This document shows, piece after piece, positions 26,111 through 51,104 of a stretch of 64,000 bases of DNA (positions are counted from its first letter, which is position 1; every line of letters begins with the position of its first letter). The stretch is taken from the NCBI RefSeq assembly GCF_009914755.1, contig NC_060944.1; one strand, 5' to 3'. The DNA comes from the human T2T-CHM13v2.0 reference genome, Homo sapiens. The position numbers and the translations under genes are program-made. The notes under the pieces were generated by a model. The model did no database searches. It was not told the DNA's origin and saw only the letters and a program-made list of their open reading frames with translations.

Positions 26111-27641
26111 AACTATGTTAAAGCAAACTAAATATGGCTGAGAAAGACTCCATACTTCTGCATTTGAGTCCTCATGGATGAACTGTAACCTAGCTTAACA
26201 GTCAGAAAAATTGAAAACCTAACTTAATAGTATGCACCTGTAACAATAGCTGAGCATTGGCCAATCCCAGCGACCATTCTTCAACCACTCATAGACTGCT
26301 AAATGGTCACTGCATTCAAATAAGGCAAATTCCAGGCTGTAACCAATCTCACTGTTTCTGTACCTCACTTCTGATTCCTGTATGTCACTTTACGTTTTTT
26401 GTCTATAAATTTGTTCTGACCACAAGGCACCCCTGGAGTCTCTGTAAATCTGCTGGGATTCTGGGGACTGCCAGATTTGCGAATCGCTTATTGCTCAATC
26501 AAACTCCTTTAAATTTAATTTGGCTGAAGTTTTTCTTTTATCAACTATAAGAATCCTAAAAGAAAATCTAGAAAATACTCTTCTGAACATTGATCTAGGC
26601 AAAGAATTTATGACTAAGTCCTCAAAAGCAAATGCAACAAAAACAAAAATTGACAATTGGGACCTAATTAAACTAAAGACCTTCTGCATAGCAGAAGAAA
26701 CTGTCAACAGAGTAAACATACAACCTACAGAATAGGAGAAAATATTTGCAAACTGTGCATCTGACAAAGAGCTAATATCCAGCATCTATAAGGAACTTAA
26801 CCAAATTTACAAGAGAAAAACATCACCATTAAAAAGTGGGCGAAGGACATAAATAGACACTTCTCAAAAGAAGACATCTCAAAGTGGCCAACAAACATAT
26901 GAAAAAACGCTCAACATCACTAATCATCAGAGAAATGCAAAACAAAACCACAATGAGATACCATTTCATACCAATCAGAATGGCTATTATTAAATAAAAA
27001 AAATAGCAGATGTTGGCAAGGTTGTAGAGAAAAGGGAATGCTTATACACTGTCAATGGGATTGTAAATTAGTTCAGCCCCTGTGGAAAAGTTTGGACATT
27101 TCTCAAAGAACTAAAAATAGAGTTACCATTCAACTCAGCAATCCCATTATTAGATAGGAACCCAAAGGAAAATAAATCATTGTACCAAAAAGATACCTGC
27201 ACTCACATGTTTATCACAGCACTATTCATAATAGCGAAGACATAAAATCAACATAGGTGCCCATCAGTGGTGGAATGTATAAAGAAAATGTGTTACATAT
27301 ACACCATGCAATACTATGCAGCCATAAATAAGAATAAAATTATGTGCTTTGCAACAACATGGATGCAGCTGGAGGCCATTATTCTACATGAATTAACACA
27401 GAAATAGAAAACCAAATACTGCACATTCTCACTTACAAGTGGGAGCTAAACATTAGGTGCACATGGACATAAAGATAGGAACAATACACAGTGGGGACTC
27501 CAAAAGAGGGTAGGGAGCAAGGGTTGAGAAACTACTTATTGGGTCCTATGGTTACTATTTGGGTGATGGGTTTAATAGAAATCAGCATCACACAATATAT
27601 CCATGTAATAAACCTGCATGTGTATCCCTTGCATGTAAAAG
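26111..27641 (+). mobile_element. 5'-truncated L1PB-like element
   Basis: ORF2 C-terminus ([14 protein letters not shown]) and L1PB-type 3' UTR; TSD AAAAGAACAAAGCT (26097-26110) / AAAAGAACAAAGGT (27642-27655). Confidence 0.85.
26116..26543 (+). mobile_element. MER57 (A-like) ERV1 solo LTR
   Basis: TGTTAAAGCAAACTAAATATGG...TATA box...TTTTTCTTTTATCA; 4-bp TSD ACTA. Confidence 0.88.
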
Positions 27642-29608
27642 AAAAGAACAAAGGTGAAGGCAACAGACCACCTGACTTCAAAATATACTGTAAAGCTATA
27701 GTAACCAAAATACCATGGTACTGGCATAAAAACAGACACATAGACCAATGGAACCAAATCAATAACCCATAAATAAAACCATGTATTAACAGCCAACCAA
27801 TTTCCAACAAAGGTACCAAAAACAAACATTAGGGAAGGGACAGTCTCCTCAGTGAGTGGTGCTGGGAAAACTGAATGTTTCATATACACAAGAATGAAAT
27901 TAGACCGCTATCTTCACCATATACAAAAATCAACTCAAAATGGATTGAAGACTTAAATGTAAGACCTGAAAATGATAAAACTACTAGAAGAAAACATTGG
28001 GTAAACACTTTAGGACACTGGTCTGGGGAAAGATGTTTTGGGTAAGAACTTAAAAGCATAGGCAACAAAAGCAAAAATAGACAAATGGAATTATATCAAA
28101 CTAAAAAACTTCCGCATGGCAAAGGAACCAACCAACAGGGTGAAGCTACAACCTACAGAATAGGAGAAAATACTTGCAATATATCTCTTCTGCAAGGGAT
28201 TAATATTCAGAATATATAAGGAACTCAAATAACAGCTAAAAAAGAAAAAATACAAATAATCAAATTTTAAAATGAGCAAATTATCCAAACAGACTTATCT
28301 CAAAAAAAAGAAAAAATACATACAAATGGCCAAAAGGTGGATGAAAAATGTTCAGTATCACTAATCATCAAGGAAAAGCAAATTAAAACCACAGTGAAAT
28401 ATTATTTTGCCCCTGTTAAATTATGAAAATTACAAAAAATAACAAATGCTTGCAAGGATATGGAGAAAGGCGAACTCTTATATACTGTTAGCGGGAATAT
28501 AAGTTAGTACAGCCATTAAAACAAAACAGTATAAAACTTTCTCAAAAAACTAAAAATAGAAATACCATTTGATCCAGCAATACCATTACTGAGTATAGAT
28601 CCAAAGGAAAGGAAATCAGCTCTCGGACGAGGTATCTGCATTCCCATGTTTATTGCAGCACTATTCACAATAGCAAAACTATGAAACAAACTAAGTGTCC
28701 ATTAACACATGAATGGATGAGGAAAATGTAGTATATATACACAATAGAATAGTATTCATCTATTAAAAATTATAATTTCTGCATTTTGCAGTAACATACA
28801 TGAGTGTGGAGGATATCATGTTAAGTGAAATAAATCAAGCACAGAAAGACAAATACTGCGTGTTCTCATTCATATGTGGAAGCTAAAAACGTTGGTTACA
28901 TAGAAGTAGAGAGTAGAATACTGGTTTCCAGAGGCTGATAAGGACCAGAGGAGAGGAGATAGGCAGAGCTTGGTTAATGGGTACAAAATTACAGTTAGAT
29001 GAGAGGAATAAGTTCTGGGGTTCTATAGTGCAATTAGGTGACTACAGTTAACAACAATTTATTGTATATTTCAAAACAGCTAGAAGAAAGAAATTTGAAT
29101 GTTCCAAATACAAAGAAATGATAAATGTTTGGGGTGATGGATATTTGAATTGCCTTGATTTGATCACCACAGGTTGCATATGTGTATTGAAATATCACCT
29201 GTGCCTCATAAATATGTACAATTATTATGTATCAATTAAAATTGTTAATTATATTTCTAAAAAGAAGCCTAATAAGACCAAATACTGGCACCTTTGTCTT
29301 GGATTTCTCAGCCTCCAGAATTGTGAGAAATAAGTTTCTGTTCTTTGTCAATTACCCAGTCTGTGGTATTCTGTTATAGCAGCATGAAGACAGAAGTAAA
29401 ATGTCTGAAGTGTTGAAAGAAAAAAATCAACAACCTAGAATTCTGTATCCAAAGAAATTATTTCATAAGTGAAAGAAAAATCTTTCTCAGGCAGACAAAA
29501 GCTGAGGGAATTCACTGGGAGCAGATCTGCCCTGTAAGAAATGTTAAAAGTTTTCGAGGCAGAAGGAAAATAACATGGATCTGAAATTTGGAGGTACATA
29601 AAGAACAG

Positions 29609-29892
29609 GGCCGGGAATGGCAGCTCATTCCTGTAATCCCAGCAATTTGGGAGGCCAGAGAGGGTGGATAGCTTGAGCCCAGGAGTTCAAGACCAGCTGG
29701 GGCAATGTGGTAAGACCCCATGTCAAAAGTGTTTTTAAAAAACATTAGCCCAGTACGGTGGCAGGTGCCTGTGGTCCCAGCTACTCAGGAGGCTGAGGTG
29801 GCAGGATCACTTGAACCCAAGTGATCAAGGCTGCAGTGAGCTCTGATCAATGCACTCTACGTTGGGCAACAGAGCAAGACCCTATCTCAAAA
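29609..29892 (+). mobile_element. AluJ with (CA)-degenerated tail
   Basis: GCTTGAGCCCAGGAGTTCAAG; ATCAAGGCTGCAGTGAGC. Confidence 0.92.
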
Positions 29893-36094: not shown

Positions 36095-36138
36095 GTTTTT
36101 TCTGGGCTTTTTTTCTTTTCTTTTTCTTTCTTTCTTTG

Positions 36139-36186
<48 letters not shown>

Positions 36187-36250
36187 TCCTTCCTTCCTTC
36201 CTTCTTTCCTTCCTTCCTTCCTTCCCTCCTTCCTTCCTTCCTTTTTTTAT
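36095..36250 (+). repeat. Compound (TTTC)n(TTCC)n microsatellite derived from an Alu tail
   Basis: Direct reading; about 150-nt polypyrimidine tract. Confidence 0.92.
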
Positions 36251-46661: not shown

Positions 46662-47184
46662 ACAGTCTTCACATGTAAAGTTAATGTACTGTAGGTTGCA
46701 TATTTCCTTGCTCCATAAACTAGCAGCACCCTTGAAAACATAATGCAATTGTTTATTGATTATATCATAATTGAATTGTACTGGGAAATTTTACAAATTA
46801 AAGAATTCTTTTATGAATTCTTTCTGTAAACCTCAGTTAATGGAGAAAGACCTTCCATTATATTGACTTCTTATTCCAGATTCAATATATTCAGTGCTAG
46901 ATTAAATTGAAATTTATCTGAAGCCCAAAGAAGAAGGCAAGAGTCCTAGTCATGACACCCCCGTGGATTTATTCTCCTTCGACAAATCTAAATATTACTA
47001 ACATTATCTAAAAAAAATCTGCCATTTATCTAGCTTATGAAAGTTCTGTAACAGAAAAGAGATCATAGATGTTTTGAAGATTCAAAATAGCATTTTTTAG
47101 AATGTATGAGATTATGCTAAGGCACTTATAACAAATATAGTCAAACCCTATATTCAAAGATGTATCACAGACTATTATGCTTAT

Positions 47185-47943
47185 TTCTGTTTATTGAAGT
47201 ACAGTTTACATAGAGTGCACAAGTCTGAAATATACAGCTCAATTAACTTTTACATACATGCACAAGCATCCAGATCAAGATGGAGAACACTTGCAGTACT
47301 CTGAAGGAAAGTTTCCTTGCAACCCATCCCTGTCTATACCCTTCCCATAAGCAATATGCCGAACTCTCATCACCTTAGATTAGTTGTGCCTGTTCTTGAA
47401 TTTCATATAAATGGAATGATACAGAATGTATTGTTTTGCATCTAGTTATTTTTTTCCATTAAATATTATGTCTCTGAGAATCATTCACATTGTTACATGT
47501 AGCCGCCAACCATTAATTCTTTTCCATTGGTGATTAGTGTTCCCTTGTATAGATACAGTAAAATTTGTTTATCCATTCTAAAATTGATACACGTTTGGAT
47601 TGTTTCCAGCTGTGAACTATTAGGACTAAGGTTCTATGAATATTTGTACACGTCTTTTTGTTGATATAAGCACTCATTTGGCTGTCTGTATACTTCTTAA
47701 TGGTATTTTAATGAAGGAAATTTTGTATAATGCAAATGTCCAAAAATAGAGCTTAGGCTAATTATTATATATTCATACAGGAACATATGCTGCAGCCATT
47801 AAAAGTGTTCTTTTGGAAGATTTTTTAATGGCCGTATGGTTTCAGTTATATCCCCAAATTATGTACAAATGTCTATATACATAGTGCAGTCTATGTATAT
47901 TTGCATGTGCAGATAAATGGGTTGTTGTGTGTTTACATGTGCA

Positions 47944-47979
<36 letters not shown>

Positions 47980-48120
47980 CAGAAAAGAACTATACCAGAG
48001 GTAAACAATAATCATCTTTAGGTAATATAAATATGTATAAATTCAATTTCATTTTAAATAATTCCCCATATTTTCAAGAGGAAAAATATTGTTTATAATA
48101 ATAAAAATACTTTAAAAATT
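47185..48120. mobile_element. Ancient L1ME-like 3' fragments (- strand to about 47690, then + strand); (TG)n at 47948-47976
   Basis: TTTATTGAAGTACAGTTTACAT...CCAGATCAAGAT...TTTCATATAAATGGAAT. Confidence 0.7.
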
Positions 48121-48196
48121 ATAAGTAACCGAAATCTTCTATTCATCAGTAAAATCTTACATGACAAACCACATTTTTGTAATGCTTTCTTTTATT

Positions 48197-49107
48197 TACT
48201 ATTTTATTTAACCTAAGTAATAGATCAAATCCTACTCCTCTTACCACAGAGCCAATGAGTCAGGATTGGTATAGTTAGGCCAAGCCGACATTCTCCTATG
48301 TGGCTCTGCCTGGACCATTTAATAATTCCAGTTTCTCATTAAGATTATTATCTAATTATACAATATGTAAAACAAGGAGAGAAAGAGGAGCAAGGAGAAA
48401 GGCAACACCTGAGTGCTTAATTGAGATAACAGAAGTACTGAACGAATCTCAGTAATTAGAGCCATCACAAATGAGATGCCTAGAAAATATTAAATAGCAT
48501 GGTCTAACAGTGTATTATATTGCAGGAATGAACCCTGCTATAATGACGTATAGGTTTATCACATTTTGAAACATAACCTAATTTTTGCTGTTTATTTTCA
48601 GTTTACAGTAAACATTTTTATTTTAAATGCAATATTCTGAGACTATAACTTGTTTTATTCTGCATAATCATCATAACCTCAATTAAGACTCTATTTTCAG
48701 ATTTAATTTGCCATAAATGGTCATCTGAAAGTCTCAACCAAAATCAAAGTCATTTTAGGAAGGAGTCTGAGAACAAGGCCATCCTGCAGCACTAAACATT
48801 TCCTTCTAGGATTTCTCTAGTCTAGGGATTAGTAAAATAGGCAAAATTGAAATTATACCATTATTCAATTCACTCAGTACTTCTGTTATCTCAGTTAAGC
48901 ACTCAGATGTTACCGTTATCCCTACTCTTCTTTCTCTCTCTGTTTTAGAATAGTTACTTTTCCTAGATATTGTACGATTAGATAATAATCATAATGAGAG
49001 AGCCACATAGGAGGCTGTTGGCTTGGCCTGACCATACCAATCCTGACTCATTGGCACTATGGTAAGAGATAGGATTTTATATATTGCTCAGGTTAAGTAA
49101 AATAGTA
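48197..49107. repeat. Long inverted repeat: arms about 48197-48447 and 48868-49107, spacer about 420 bp
   Basis: Manual reverse-complement alignment: about 28 substitutions over about 220 aligned nt, plus three indels. Confidence 0.92.
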
Positions 49108-49109
49108 TG

Positions 49110-49312
49110 TCAAGTAAGCAGGCCAAATCCTACCCACAGTTTCTTTTTGTAAGTTCCATGAGCAAAGAATGGTTTTTACATTTTTATATGGTCACATTTT
49201 AAATGGTTATATAAGTACATAAGTAACGCCCTTGATTTTTTCTTCTTGTGGCACGAAGTTGAAAATGGTTACTATCCAGTGCTTAATAGGAAAGAAATTG
49301 CTGACCCTCACT
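49110..49312. mobile_element. MER58 (C-like) hAT-Charlie element
   Basis: GGCCAAATCC...GAGCAAAGAATGGTTTTTACATTTTT...ACTATCCAG...TTGCTGACCCT. Confidence 0.75.
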
Positions 49313-49387
49313 CTAGTCCCCCTATGACACTATGATCTTCATTCATACTAATGAAATGGAGTGGGGTTTTTGGCAGAGATAATTCTA

Positions 49388-49775
49388 TGTGGAAACAGCA
49401 TTGTGCATTCAACATACCCATTTCCTTTGCCTCCTAAGCATTATAGGAATTCTTTATTTCCCAACTGTTCTTGCAGTTGGGTGGGGTCGGTGTAACTAAG
49501 TTCTGGTCAATGGCAAGTGATCTGGCCCTTAAAGCATGCTGAGCCTCCATATACTTTTTCTCTCTTCACTTGTGTGCTATATGAATGTTCTACAAAATGT
49601 ACAGCCACTAATTAGGAGCCTCGGTCCCCTCATCAAAGGAAGACTGCCCTTTGGATACCAAAGTATGAAGAGTATTGCAGCATAAACAAAAAGCAAACTT
49701 TTATTATGCTAAGCCATTGGGCTTTGGAGGGATTGTTTGTTATAGCAACCAATGTTACTTTCCCTGACTACTACA
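49388..49775 (+). mobile_element. MLT1 (J/K-like) LTR
   Basis: TATTTCCCAACTGTTCTTGCAGTTGGG...GTTCTGGTCAATGG...TTTGTTATAGCA...CTGACTACTACA. Confidence 0.65.
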
Positions 49776-51104
49776 AGTATAACTGGTTTTTCAATATTAC
49801 CATGCCTGATATTACCATCACATTGTTAACTCACAGAAACACACACACACACAAAAGTGTGAGAACAGTATATCTTTCAATCTTTGTGAGTAACCAAAAC
49901 ATCCCTTTAAAGTTTTAATTATTTGGCTTTCATGGCCCCGACAAATAAAACCTTTATTCCAAAACACTACTTTTTGTTTATCACTTATTATGGATAAAAG
50001 TTGATGGTTATTTACTAAACTACAATTTCAGAATCAAGTTAGACCCCAGGTAAATAAAGGAAAATCTCAACCTTTATAAAATAACAACCACGCTAAATTT
50101 GCATTCCAAAACGTGTAAACAGCTCTTTCATGCTTATTCCTCTACAAAGCTATTTCTCATTTAACTTTCATCATCCTGTTTAGAGTTTACAAGTGAGAAT
50201 CTTCAGATTTCAGTTTAGACACATCTGGCTCACAAATGAGGCACTACACCCTGAGTCATTGTGAAATCCTCGCCACAAGCATTGATGATGAGATCTTGTG
50301 TTTATTAGTAAAGACGTTAGAACCAGCCAGTCGCAAAGCTATTTTAAGTGGAGACATCTCTGATGTGGCATCTTAGAGGTGTCAGTTTGATCTTTCTCTG
50401 CTGAGGAATGGCTGGATTAAATTCCACTTCTAAATGCAAATTAATCAGTTTTAGCTTTCTTTCAGATATAATCTGAACTGAAGTTGTTGAAAGATTATTT
50501 CAACTACTCTTTAGTTATTAAAAAAAAAAGAGTTAAAACTTCTAGCCTGTTGGATTTTTTCTTTATTTCACTGAGCTCTTTTGACTTCCCTAGGGTATAA
50601 TTATATTCCTTGTGCTTTTTAAAAAATGCATCATAAAGCTAAGGTATTTATTATTTTTAAATCACTAAAAACAATTTTCATTAACAACAAATTTATTTCT
50701 CCTTTGTCTTACACCAAGCCTGACTTGCTCCCCAAAACAAAGTGAACAAAAAAAAGAATTTAAGGCTAAGCTTTTAAGAATGGATTGATAATGACTTTTG
50801 ATTGCAGCAGACAAAATTACTGATTCATAGAGTTCACCCTGAGGACAGCCCTCCTCTAATATGGTCACAGCCCACTGCCCTGAGGGAGTTGGATGATGTT
50901 GACAAACAACTTGGAACAAAGTGAAGTAAATTCCCAGGAAATTAGATGAACTCATGTTTCCCCTTTCTCCACACATAAGAAAAAGATAGCCAACACACCA
51001 ACATATTCTCAATCAAGAATTTTTCCCATTTAACCTCACAAAAATGACTTAGCATCTCCGTATCTTGAAATAGATTTACCCACAATTGGGAAAAATCTCA
51101 TCAG

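What the first reader, a model, noticed from the sequence alone, without database searches (positions are those of the whole stretch)
48197..49107. Unexplained ~910-bp fold-back (two ~250-bp inverted arms) about 10 kb upstream of ISM1
Seen: 48197-48307 is the reverse complement of 48999-49107, and after a ~27-nt left-arm insertion the match continues (48335-48447 vs 48868-48998, with an ~18-nt right-arm insertion). By eye the arms are about 87% identical, with mostly transitions and no clear strand bias toward G:U pairs, and the spacer is about 420 bp of AT-rich DNA. I cannot match the arms to any Alu, L1, LTR or MER family I recognise. A much more decayed MER58 abuts the right arm, and weak similarity may continue beyond it (TACTAATGAA near 49346 vs the reverse complement near 48145). 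Inference: this is an unannotated long-TIR DNA transposon or a local inverted duplication. If it predates MER58, its arms have been kept similar by gene conversion or selection. It could act as an inversion substrate or, if transcribed, give a ~220-bp dsRNA for ADAR or Dicer.
Basis: partly seen in the sequence, partly recalled or inferred. Interest (0 to 1): 0.8.

Follow-up and report, generated by a model that had tools for sequence, protein, structure and literature searches.

The report
Old inverted repair duplication, not transposon
The fold-back is real, but it is most likely a primate-age scar of DNA repair, in which about 250 bases of nearby unique DNA were copied backwards into an older transposon fossil, so it is an ordinary relic of a known process.

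Summary
The inverted repeat exists as described. The arms are 48197-48447 and 48868-49107, with 193 of 222 aligned positions identical (86.9%) and a 420-nt spacer.

It is not a transposon family. The whole element, the left arm and the spacer match nothing else in the T2T genome. Six arm motifs allowed up to 3 mismatches hit only the two arms, plus one chance hit. The same tools find 40 and 33 other copies of the neighbouring MER58-like repeat.

The right arm is an insertion into that MER58-like hAT element:
- The element's missing 5' end lies at 48823-48841, inside the "spacer".
- An exact 8-bp target-site duplication, CTCTAGTC, sits at 48815-48822 and 49311-49318.
- Removing 48842-49113 in silico restores one continuous family alignment.

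This fits the "repair-mediated duplications" of Pace et al. 2009 (PMC2671141). The left arm is the donor and the right arm is the inverted copy.

Arm divergence is K2P 0.146, about 33-73 Myr, and younger than the MER58-like copy (K2P about 0.26). I found no gene-conversion patches and no G:U strand bias.

I could not test transcription, orthologues or polymorphism. Interest is low.

The parts
48197..48447 (+). Left arm. Inferred donor (template) of the duplication. Unique DNA. May extend weakly outward to 48183.
   Evidence: alignment to the right arm. (its only other genomic copy is the right arm). The possible extension to 48183 comes and by-eye comparison, and is not significant.
48448..48814 (.). 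Unique DNA between the donor and the old transposon.
   Evidence: the spacer matches only itself in the genome. (no significant similarity to the inner arms).
48815..48822 (+). Left copy of the 8-bp target-site duplication (CTCTAGTC) of the MER58-like hAT element.
   Evidence: exact 8-mer also at 49311-49318. (this 8-mer occurs 4 times on both strands of the 64-kb window, 2 of them here).
48823..48841 (+). Detached 5' terminal fragment of the MER58-like element (family model positions about 3-21).
   Evidence: terminus profile scores 14.2 bits over 48822-48843, in the top 1.1% of 4264 tiles of the window. (it joins to the body in one nhmmer alignment once the insert is removed).
48842..48867 (.). 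26-nt junction ("filler") sequence between the transposon fragment and the copied arm. Origin unknown.
   Evidence: best in-silico excision is 48842-49113. (nearest match within about 5-6 kb on either side is only an 11-mer).
48868..49107 (-). Right arm. Inverted copy (acceptor) of 48197-48447, inserted into the MER58-like element.
49108..49113 (.). Outer junction nucleotides. The boundary is uncertain by a few bases. 49108-49120 may be a decayed continuation of the copy, ending in a 3-nt GCA shared with the transposon.
   Evidence: the top ten junction choices resume between 49109 and 49118. (family homology starts at 49116). The GCA microhomology is inferred by eye.
49114..49310 (+). Body and 3' end of the MER58-like hAT element (family model position about 22 onward).
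   Evidence: 40 non-self hits at 71-90% identity on many chromosomes..
49311..49318 (+). Right copy of the 8-bp target-site duplication (CTCTAGTC).

Best explanation
**What it is.** The fold-back is a fossil of one repair or replication accident. It is not a mobile element.

**Starting state.** An old MER58-like hAT transposon already sat at 48823-49310 in today's coordinates (about 216 bp before the insertion), flanked by its 8-bp target-site duplication.

**The event (inferred).**
- About 33-73 Myr ago the element was broken about 20 bases from its 5' end.
- The break was healed by copying a unique stretch lying about 375 bp upstream (48197-48447, possibly from 48183).
- The copy went in backwards, with 26 nt of filler on one side and a few bases of microhomology or deletion on the other.
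- The mechanism would be synthesis-dependent strand annealing or a replicative template switch.

**Result.** Donor and copy now face each other as 251- and 240-nt inverted arms, 420 nt apart.

**Since then.** Both arms have drifted neutrally to 87% identity.

**Consequences.** The locus has no demonstrated function. If the region is transcribed, the RNA would fold into a long imperfect hairpin. As DNA it should be stable.

**Shown versus inferred.** Shown: the anatomy, the single-locus status, the interrupted transposon with its target-site duplication, and the relative ages. Inferred: the repair pathway, the absolute date, neutrality and the lack of function.
For: 1. **Single locus.**
   - DNA searches with the whole element, the left arm and the spacer found only this locus in the 3.1-Gb genome.
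   - Six arm motifs of 25-35 nt, built from positions where the arms agree and allowed up to 3 mismatches, hit only the two arms. Reversed-pattern controls gave 0.
   - One extra 3-mismatch hit on C3 did not extend beyond about 26 nt.
2. **Positive controls.**
   - The adjoining 238 nt gave 75 first-look candidates. Of these, 40 were scored, yielding 40 non-self matches (one locus matched twice) at 71-90% identity.
   - A 33-mer from it gave 34 sites, 33 of them non-self, with a control of 0.
3. **Interrupted transposon.**
   - A profile of 15 family copies aligns to the window only from model position 23, at 49116.
   - The missing terminus scores 14.2 bits at 48822-48843, on the same strand and just left of the right arm. 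That is in the top 1.1% of 4264 window tiles.
   - Deleting 48842-49113 in silico gives one ungapped alignment of model positions 3-91 and raises the score from 58.5 to 68.3 bits.
4. **Target-site duplication.** An exact 8-mer sits directly before the recovered 5' end and directly after the 3' end. Eight bp is the hAT target-site duplication length (recalled). The 8-mer occurs only 4 times on both strands of the window.
5. **Fit to the published class** (PMC2671141; abstract and sections 6-8 read).
   - The class is a TE interrupted by an insert of at least 50 bp whose only other genomic copy lies within 5 kb.
   - There were 824 proximal cases, with mean length 162 bp and maximum 619 bp.
   - Junctions carry microhomology of 2-9 nt, deletions of 1-15 nt and filler of 1-68 nt, and have no poly-A.
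   - Here the insert is 272 nt, the donor is 420 nt away, the filler is 26 nt, and the longest A/T run at the insert ends is 4.
6. **Age order.** Arm K2P is 0.146, or 0.073 per arm. The MER58-like copy is 119 of 151 columns identical to a rough consensus, K2P 0.26.
7. **Neutral pattern.**
   - Differences are evenly spread. The longest identical run is 22 nt, with permutation P = 0.79.
   - G:U-compatible changes number 9 on one strand and 12 on the other.
   - There is no ORF of 40 aa or more.
Against: - No orthologous "empty site" could be examined, so the insertion and its direction rest on one genome.
- The recovered 5' fragment is only about 19 nt. Its profile score alone is modest (P about 0.011) and it was the fourth place I tested.
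- An exact 8/8 target-site duplication is better preserved than expected for an element about 21% diverged from its consensus.
- The outer 35-45 nt of both arms resemble the stretch just left of the insertion site. P is about 0.001-0.002 in a post-hoc junction test, but 0.12 and 0.03 against whole-region shuffles. A simple one-step model does not predict this.
- The family name MER58 and the collinearity in its consensus were judged from my own 15-copy profile, not from Dfam or RepeatMasker.
- The genome DNA search scores only the best candidates, so a very small and very old related family cannot be excluded. Such a family would not, however, explain 87% arm identity.
Confidence: 0.78

Rival explanations
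1. Same kind of event but in the opposite direction. The right arm, with the transposon's true 5' end inside its outer tip, is original flank. The left arm is the inverted copy, inserted into unique DNA 420 nt upstream.
For: - The right arm is physically contiguous with the transposon body.
- By eye its outer tip loosely resembles the family terminus.
- Its outer tip also resembles 48807-48840.
- Nothing shows that the left arm is not an insertion, because its flanks are unique.
Against: - The family terminus is not detectable in the right arm's tip (P = 0.22) or in the left arm's tip (P = 0.91).
- nhmmer on the intact sequence starts only at model position 23.
- The terminus at 48822-48843 and the exact 8-bp duplication next to it would both have to be coincidences.
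Confidence: 0.1
2. A non-autonomous long-TIR (fold-back type) DNA transposon present as a single surviving or very low-copy insertion.
For: - It has two long terminal inverted arms around an AT-rich, non-coding core.
- The per-arm divergence of about 7% falls in the period when, from my recollection of Pace and Feschotte 2007, the last primate DNA transposons were active. I did not read that paper here.
Against: - There are no other copies at any of six motifs or by BLAST, although the controls work.
- There is no flanking target-site duplication. The only symmetric candidate is a palindromic TTAA 15 nt inside both arms, and the arm similarity runs on past it.
- One fragment of the interrupted MER58-like element, with its target-site duplication, lies inside the supposed element and the other lies outside.
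Confidence: 0.03
3. An older inverted repeat whose arms are kept similar by gene conversion, or by selection for a hairpin RNA (an hpRNA, endo-siRNA or ADAR-substrate locus).
For: - Either strand is predicted to fold into a long hairpin, with free energies of -370 and -388 kcal/mol and z-scores of -27 and -21.
- A published survey reports that 7.8% of human intergenic inverted duplicates are expressed (PMC5398296, abstract).
- The hub's gene table places the window inside the span of long TASP1 transcript models.
Against: - The hairpin follows automatically from the repeat.
- Differences are evenly spread, with no conversion tracts.
- Transitions show no bias toward G:U on either strand (9 versus 12).
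- The insertion is demonstrably younger than the MER58-like copy.
- The arms match no other genomic sequence that could serve as a target.
- No Rfam family matches.
Confidence: 0.05

Closest known systems
[quoted passage not shown]
   Same: - A TE is interrupted by an insert of at least 50 bp.
- The insert's only other genomic copy lies within 5 kb.
- The insert length of 272 nt is within the reported range (mean 162, maximum 619).
- There is filler, a possible 3-nt microhomology and a small deletion at the junctions, and no poly-A.
- It is of primate age. The paper also reports an opposite-orientation case, an ACSBG2 exon.
   Different: - It could not be confirmed with an orthologous empty site.
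- One TE fragment is only about 19 nt, so I infer that their RepeatMasker-based pipeline probably could not have listed it.
- Their Table S1 could not be opened, so I cannot say whether it is already listed.
- It shows an extra, unexplained similarity between the copy's outer end and the target site.
Template-switch mutations (four-point model, Löytynoja and Goldman 2017, PMC5453318) and small inverted triplications (PMC13334657, abstract)
   Same: - A nearby stretch is copied in reverse complement during DNA synthesis and creates a new inverted repeat or hairpin.
- The small inverted triplications have units of about 150 bp, similar in scale to these arms.
   Different: - The passages of the four-point paper that I read concern short events (they mention a 14-bp filter on the copied fragment).
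- Here about 250 nt were copied from 420 nt away.
- There is no third, direct copy as in a triplication.
Long-TIR or fold-back non-autonomous DNA transposons
   Same: Long inverted terminal arms around a short non-coding core.
   Different: It is a single locus, has no target-site duplication, and straddles one half of an older transposon.
Large human palindromes and inverted repeats kept near-identical by gene conversion, such as those on the X and Y (recalled: Warburton et al. 2004)
   Same: Inverted arms with a spacer in non-repetitive DNA.
   Different: The arms are about 250 nt rather than kilobases, are 87% rather than over 99% identical, and show no conversion signal.

Membership tests
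Repair-mediated proximal duplication (Pace et al. 2009) | The insert interrupts a TE whose two fragments are collinear in the family consensus (within ±30 bp). | tested here: met
   Model positions 3-21 lie at 48823-48841 and positions from about 22 lie at 49114 onward. After in-silico excision there is one ungapped nhmmer alignment of positions 3-91, and the score rises from 58.5 to 68.3 bits. An exact 8-bp target-site duplication sits at both element ends. The profile was my own 15-copy model, not RepeatMasker.
Repair-mediated proximal duplication (Pace et al. 2009) | The inserted sequence is at least 50 bp and is found at exactly one other place in the genome. | tested here: met
   The insert is 272 nt, of which 240 nt are clearly copied. 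Only the partner arm is found by BLAST and by six motifs with up to 3 mismatches. The controls are positive.
Repair-mediated proximal duplication (Pace et al. 2009) | The donor is on the same chromosome, more than 50 bp and less than 5 kb from the acceptor. | tested here: met
   There are 420 nt between donor and acceptor.
Repair-mediated proximal duplication (Pace et al. 2009) | Junctions show repair hallmarks (microhomology, filler, small deletion) and no poly-A/T tail. | tested here: inconclusive
   There is a 26-nt filler and no A/T run longer than 4 at the insert ends. The 3-nt GCA microhomology and the roughly 3-nt deletion are read by eye and are blurred by about 7% divergence per arm.
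Repair-mediated proximal duplication (Pace et al. 2009) | An empty (pre-insertion) site exists in outgroup species. | not testable with these tools
Long-TIR DNA transposon family | Multiple dispersed copies share the termini. | tested here: not met
   There are 0 copies outside this locus. The terminal 35-mer motif was tested specifically.
Long-TIR DNA transposon family | A target-site duplication directly flanks the two TIR ends. | tested here: not met
   I scanned 40 x 40 boundary combinations and found 3 short matches, against a null mean of 17.7. None lies at the arm ends. The only symmetric one is a palindromic TTAA inside the arms.
Long-TIR DNA transposon family | It inserted as one unit, so the host sequence is continuous across it. 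| tested here: not met
   The interrupted MER58-like element has one half inside the fold-back and one half outside it.
MER58 (hAT superfamily MITE) for the neighbouring repeat | A match to the curated consensus and an 8-bp target-site duplication. | tested here: inconclusive
   It is a dispersed family with conserved termini and has an 8-bp target-site duplication. MER58A-D are listed under hAT in PMC5753468 Table 5. No Dfam or Repbase consensus was available, so the name itself is recalled.

The most novel reading that the evidence does not exclude
The repair accident created a primate-specific long hairpin gene "from nothing". Under this reading the 911-nt unit is transcribed, for example within long TASP1 transcript models or as an upstream ISM1 regulatory RNA. 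It folds into a duplex of about 220 bp and is used as an ADAR or Dicer substrate. In addition, the similarity of about 40 nt between the donor's outer end and the break site would mean that homology steered the choice of template.
Probability: 0.05. Interest if true: 0.45.

Novelty: new member of a known kind. Interest (0 to 1): 0.15.

Why it matters
It matters mainly as a clean negative. A striking 911-bp fold-back that looks like an unclassified transposon turns out to be a templated repair insertion. The split older transposon supplies both the direction and the relative date of the event.

It also illustrates that proximal repair duplications in inverted orientation can create long hairpin-capable loci in unique DNA. 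Pipelines that depend on TE annotation would probably miss cases like this one, where one TE fragment is only about 19 nt.

There is no evidence that it affects ISM1, TASP1 or genome stability.

Tried and rejected
- **Larger palindrome beyond the arms.** Rejected. Only a (TG)n/(CA)n pair exceeds the shuffles.
- **Transposon's 5' terminus hidden in the right arm's tip, the left flank or the left arm's tip.** Not supported (P = 0.22, 0.84 and 0.91).
- **piggyBac-like TTAA boundaries.** Rejected. TTAA is its own reverse complement, and arm similarity continues beyond it for 11 more nt (15 counting the TTAA).
- **C3 motif hit as a second copy.** Rejected. It does not extend.
- **Arms as copies of the spacer.** Rejected for the inner 200 nt (P = 0.47 and 0.08).
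- **Rfam.** Only sub-threshold chance hits. One is a mir-297 hit on the GT microsatellite.
- **Origin of the filler and of the arm-specific 27-nt and 18-nt stretches.** No convincing template within about 5-6 kb on either side.
- **Literature on this locus.** A search for ISM1 + "inverted repeat" + "chromosome 20" returned 0 papers. I made no other search for the locus.

Full report

Yes. The repeat finder reports four collinear inverted blocks. A gapped local alignment joins them into one pair of arms, 48197-48447 and 48868-49107.
- 193 of 222 aligned positions are identical (86.9%).
- There is a 2-nt indel, a 27-nt left-only stretch (48307-48333) and an 18-nt right-only stretch (48950-48967).
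- The spacer is 420 nt.
- The 29 substitutions are 21 transitions and 8 transversions, and 5 are CpG-associated.
- They would give G:U pairs 9 times on the + transcript and 12 times on the - transcript.

Between 47000-48196 and the reverse complement of 49108-50600, only a (TG)n/(CA)n pair exceeds 30 shuffles.

Within the 64-kb window this is the only long inverted pair that I do not read as Alu against Alu. That reading is by eye.

**2. Is it a transposon family?**

The window's genome (T2T, 3.1 Gb) could be searched.
- The whole element, the left arm and the spacer each found only this locus.
- A family active when the arms diverged would have left copies about as similar to the arms as the arms are to each other. 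I therefore searched six motifs of 25-35 nt, taken from positions where the arms agree, allowing 3 mismatches.
- Each motif hit exactly the two arms, and the reversed-pattern controls gave 0.
- One extra 3-mismatch hit on C3 does not extend beyond about 26 nt.

The tools are able to see old repeats.
- The 238 nt that abut the right arm gave 75 first-look candidates, of which 40 were scored. They yielded 40 non-self matches at 71-90% identity on many chromosomes.
- A 33-mer from that repeat gave 34 sites (33 non-self) against 0 in the control.

Other evidence points the same way.
- No target-site duplication flanks the arms. The only symmetric candidate is a palindromic TTAA 15 nt inside both arms, and the similarity runs on past it.
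- There is no ORF of 40 aa or more.
- No Rfam family matches.

**3. What the neighbouring repeat reveals**

I collected 15 copies of the neighbouring family that carry 5' ends and built a profile from them.
- In the intact window the profile aligns only from model position 23, at 49116. The local copy therefore appears to lack its first 22 or so bases, right where the right arm ends.
- The missing terminus is not detectable in the right arm's tip, the left flank or the left arm's tip (P = 0.22, 0.84 and 0.91).
- It is found at 48822-48843, on the same strand and 25 nt left of the right arm. The score is 14.2 bits, in the top 1.1% of 4264 tiles of the window.
- Directly before it lies CTCTAGTC (48815-48822). 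The identical 8-mer lies directly after the element's 3' end (49311-49318).
- That 8-mer occurs only 4 times on both strands of the window.
- Eight bp is the target-site duplication length of hAT elements (recalled). MER58A-D are listed as hAT in PMC5753468 Table 5 (passages read).
- Removing 48842-49113 in silico gives a single ungapped alignment of model positions 3-91 and raises the score from 58.5 to 68.3 bits.

The right arm, together with 26 nt on its inner side and about 6 nt on its outer side, is therefore an insertion into a pre-existing transposon. The "spacer" of the fold-back contains that transposon's detached 5' end. No model in which the 911 bp moved as one unit is compatible with this layout.

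**4. Mechanism**

The anatomy matches the "repair-mediated duplications" of Pace, Sen, Batzer and Feschotte (PMC2671141). I read the abstract and sections 6, 7 and 8, and ran a term search.

The paper describes:
- TEs interrupted by at least 50 bp of sequence whose only other genomic copy lies within 5 kb;
- 824 such proximal cases in human, with mean length 162 bp and maximum 619 bp;
- junctions with microhomology (2-9 nt), deletions (1-15 nt) and filler (1-68 nt), and no poly-A tail;
- attribution to synthesis-dependent strand annealing;
- mostly primate-age events;
- at least one opposite-orientation example.

This locus shows:
- a donor, 48197-48447, lying 375 nt upstream of the element;
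- an inverted copy 420 nt from the donor;
- 26 nt of filler;
- no A/T run longer than 4 at the insert ends.

By eye, the copy may run on weakly to 49120 and end in a GCA shared with the transposon at the point where it resumes. That would be a 3-nt microhomology with a loss of about 3 nt. This last point is inference.

A replicative template switch would give the same product, and I cannot tell the two pathways apart. I read passages of the four-point model paper (PMC5453318) and the abstract of the paper on small inverted triplications of about 150 bp (PMC13334657).

**5. Age and constraint**

- Arm divergence is K2P 0.146. That gives about 33 Myr at 2.2e-9 per site per year, the rate used in PMC2671141. 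It gives 61-73 Myr at 1.2-1.0e-9.
- The interrupted transposon copy is identical to a rough majority consensus at 119 of 151 columns, K2P 0.26. It is roughly 3.5 times older per lineage than each arm.
- The fold-back does not predate the MER58-like element.
- The longest identical run is 22 nt (permutation P = 0.79) and the differences are evenly spread. There is no sign of gene-conversion tracts.
- There is no G:U strand bias.
- The predicted hairpins, at -370 and -388 kcal/mol with z-scores of -27 and -21, follow automatically from the repeat.

On DNA stability, a review that I read in passages (PMC7999016) states that risk rises with arm length and similarity and with short spacers. It also states that inverted Alus stall eukaryotic forks with a 12-bp spacer but not with a 52-bp spacer. 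With 87% identity and a 420-bp spacer, this locus should be stable.

**6. What remains odd**

The outer 35-45 nt of both arms resemble 48807-48852, which comprises the old flank, the target-site duplication and the transposon's 5' end. The similarity includes a 10-nt exact word.
- A junction-limited test gives P of about 0.001-0.002, but that test was post hoc.
- Shuffles over the whole spacer-versus-arm comparison give P = 0.12 and 0.03.

It may be chance in AT-rich DNA. It may be homology that guided the choice of template or the final annealing. It may be a long duplication of the target made during repair. I leave it unexplained.

The reverse direction, with the right arm original and the left arm the copy, keeps about 10%. 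It would make both the recovered terminus and the exact 8-bp duplication coincidences.

**7. Comparison and verdict**

This is a new example of a known kind, a proximal templated repair duplication that happens to be inverted and so forms a fold-back.
- Millions of mostly short inverted duplicates are catalogued in the human genome, and 7.8% of the intergenic ones are reported as expressed (PMC5398296; abstract and sections 6 and 12 read).
- I could not test transcription, editing, orthologues or population variation.
- I could not open Table S1 of PMC2671141, so I cannot say whether the locus is already listed.
- A search for ISM1 + "inverted repeat" + "chromosome 20" found 0 papers.

Interest is low at 0.15. 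The bolder reading, a repair-born primate hairpin RNA locus, keeps about 5%.

Noticed in passing
window 47947-47976 and 49824-49867: A perfect (GT)15 microsatellite lies on the left and an imperfect CA-rich stretch lies on the right. Together they mimic an outer inverted pair. The left one also draws a sub-threshold mir-297 Rfam hit. I read this as a low-complexity artefact.
   Followed up: partly
window about 49680-49805: Another old dispersed repeat lies to the right of the MER58-like element, with 7 non-self genomic hits at 75-85% identity. The family was not identified.
   Followed up: no
window 26547-27252 and 27975-28691: Four collinear direct-repeat blocks of 62-205 nt at 74-80% identity, spaced 1428-1441 nt apart. 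By eye the sequences look like L1 3' ORF2 region. They are either two L1 fragments or an old tandem duplication of about 1.43 kb.
   Followed up: no
window 565-700/5569-5704, 29757-29847/29952-30042, 60195-60498/62146-62462: The other long inverted pairs in the window look like Alu-against-Alu pairs (my reading by eye), at 73-91% complementarity. The pair at 29757/29952 has only a 104-nt spacer.
   Followed up: no
window about 36110-36245: A long (CTTT)n/(CCTT)n microsatellite sits directly beside an antisense Alu. It is one of three antisense Alu copies spaced about 2.8 kb apart (family D4).
   Followed up: partly
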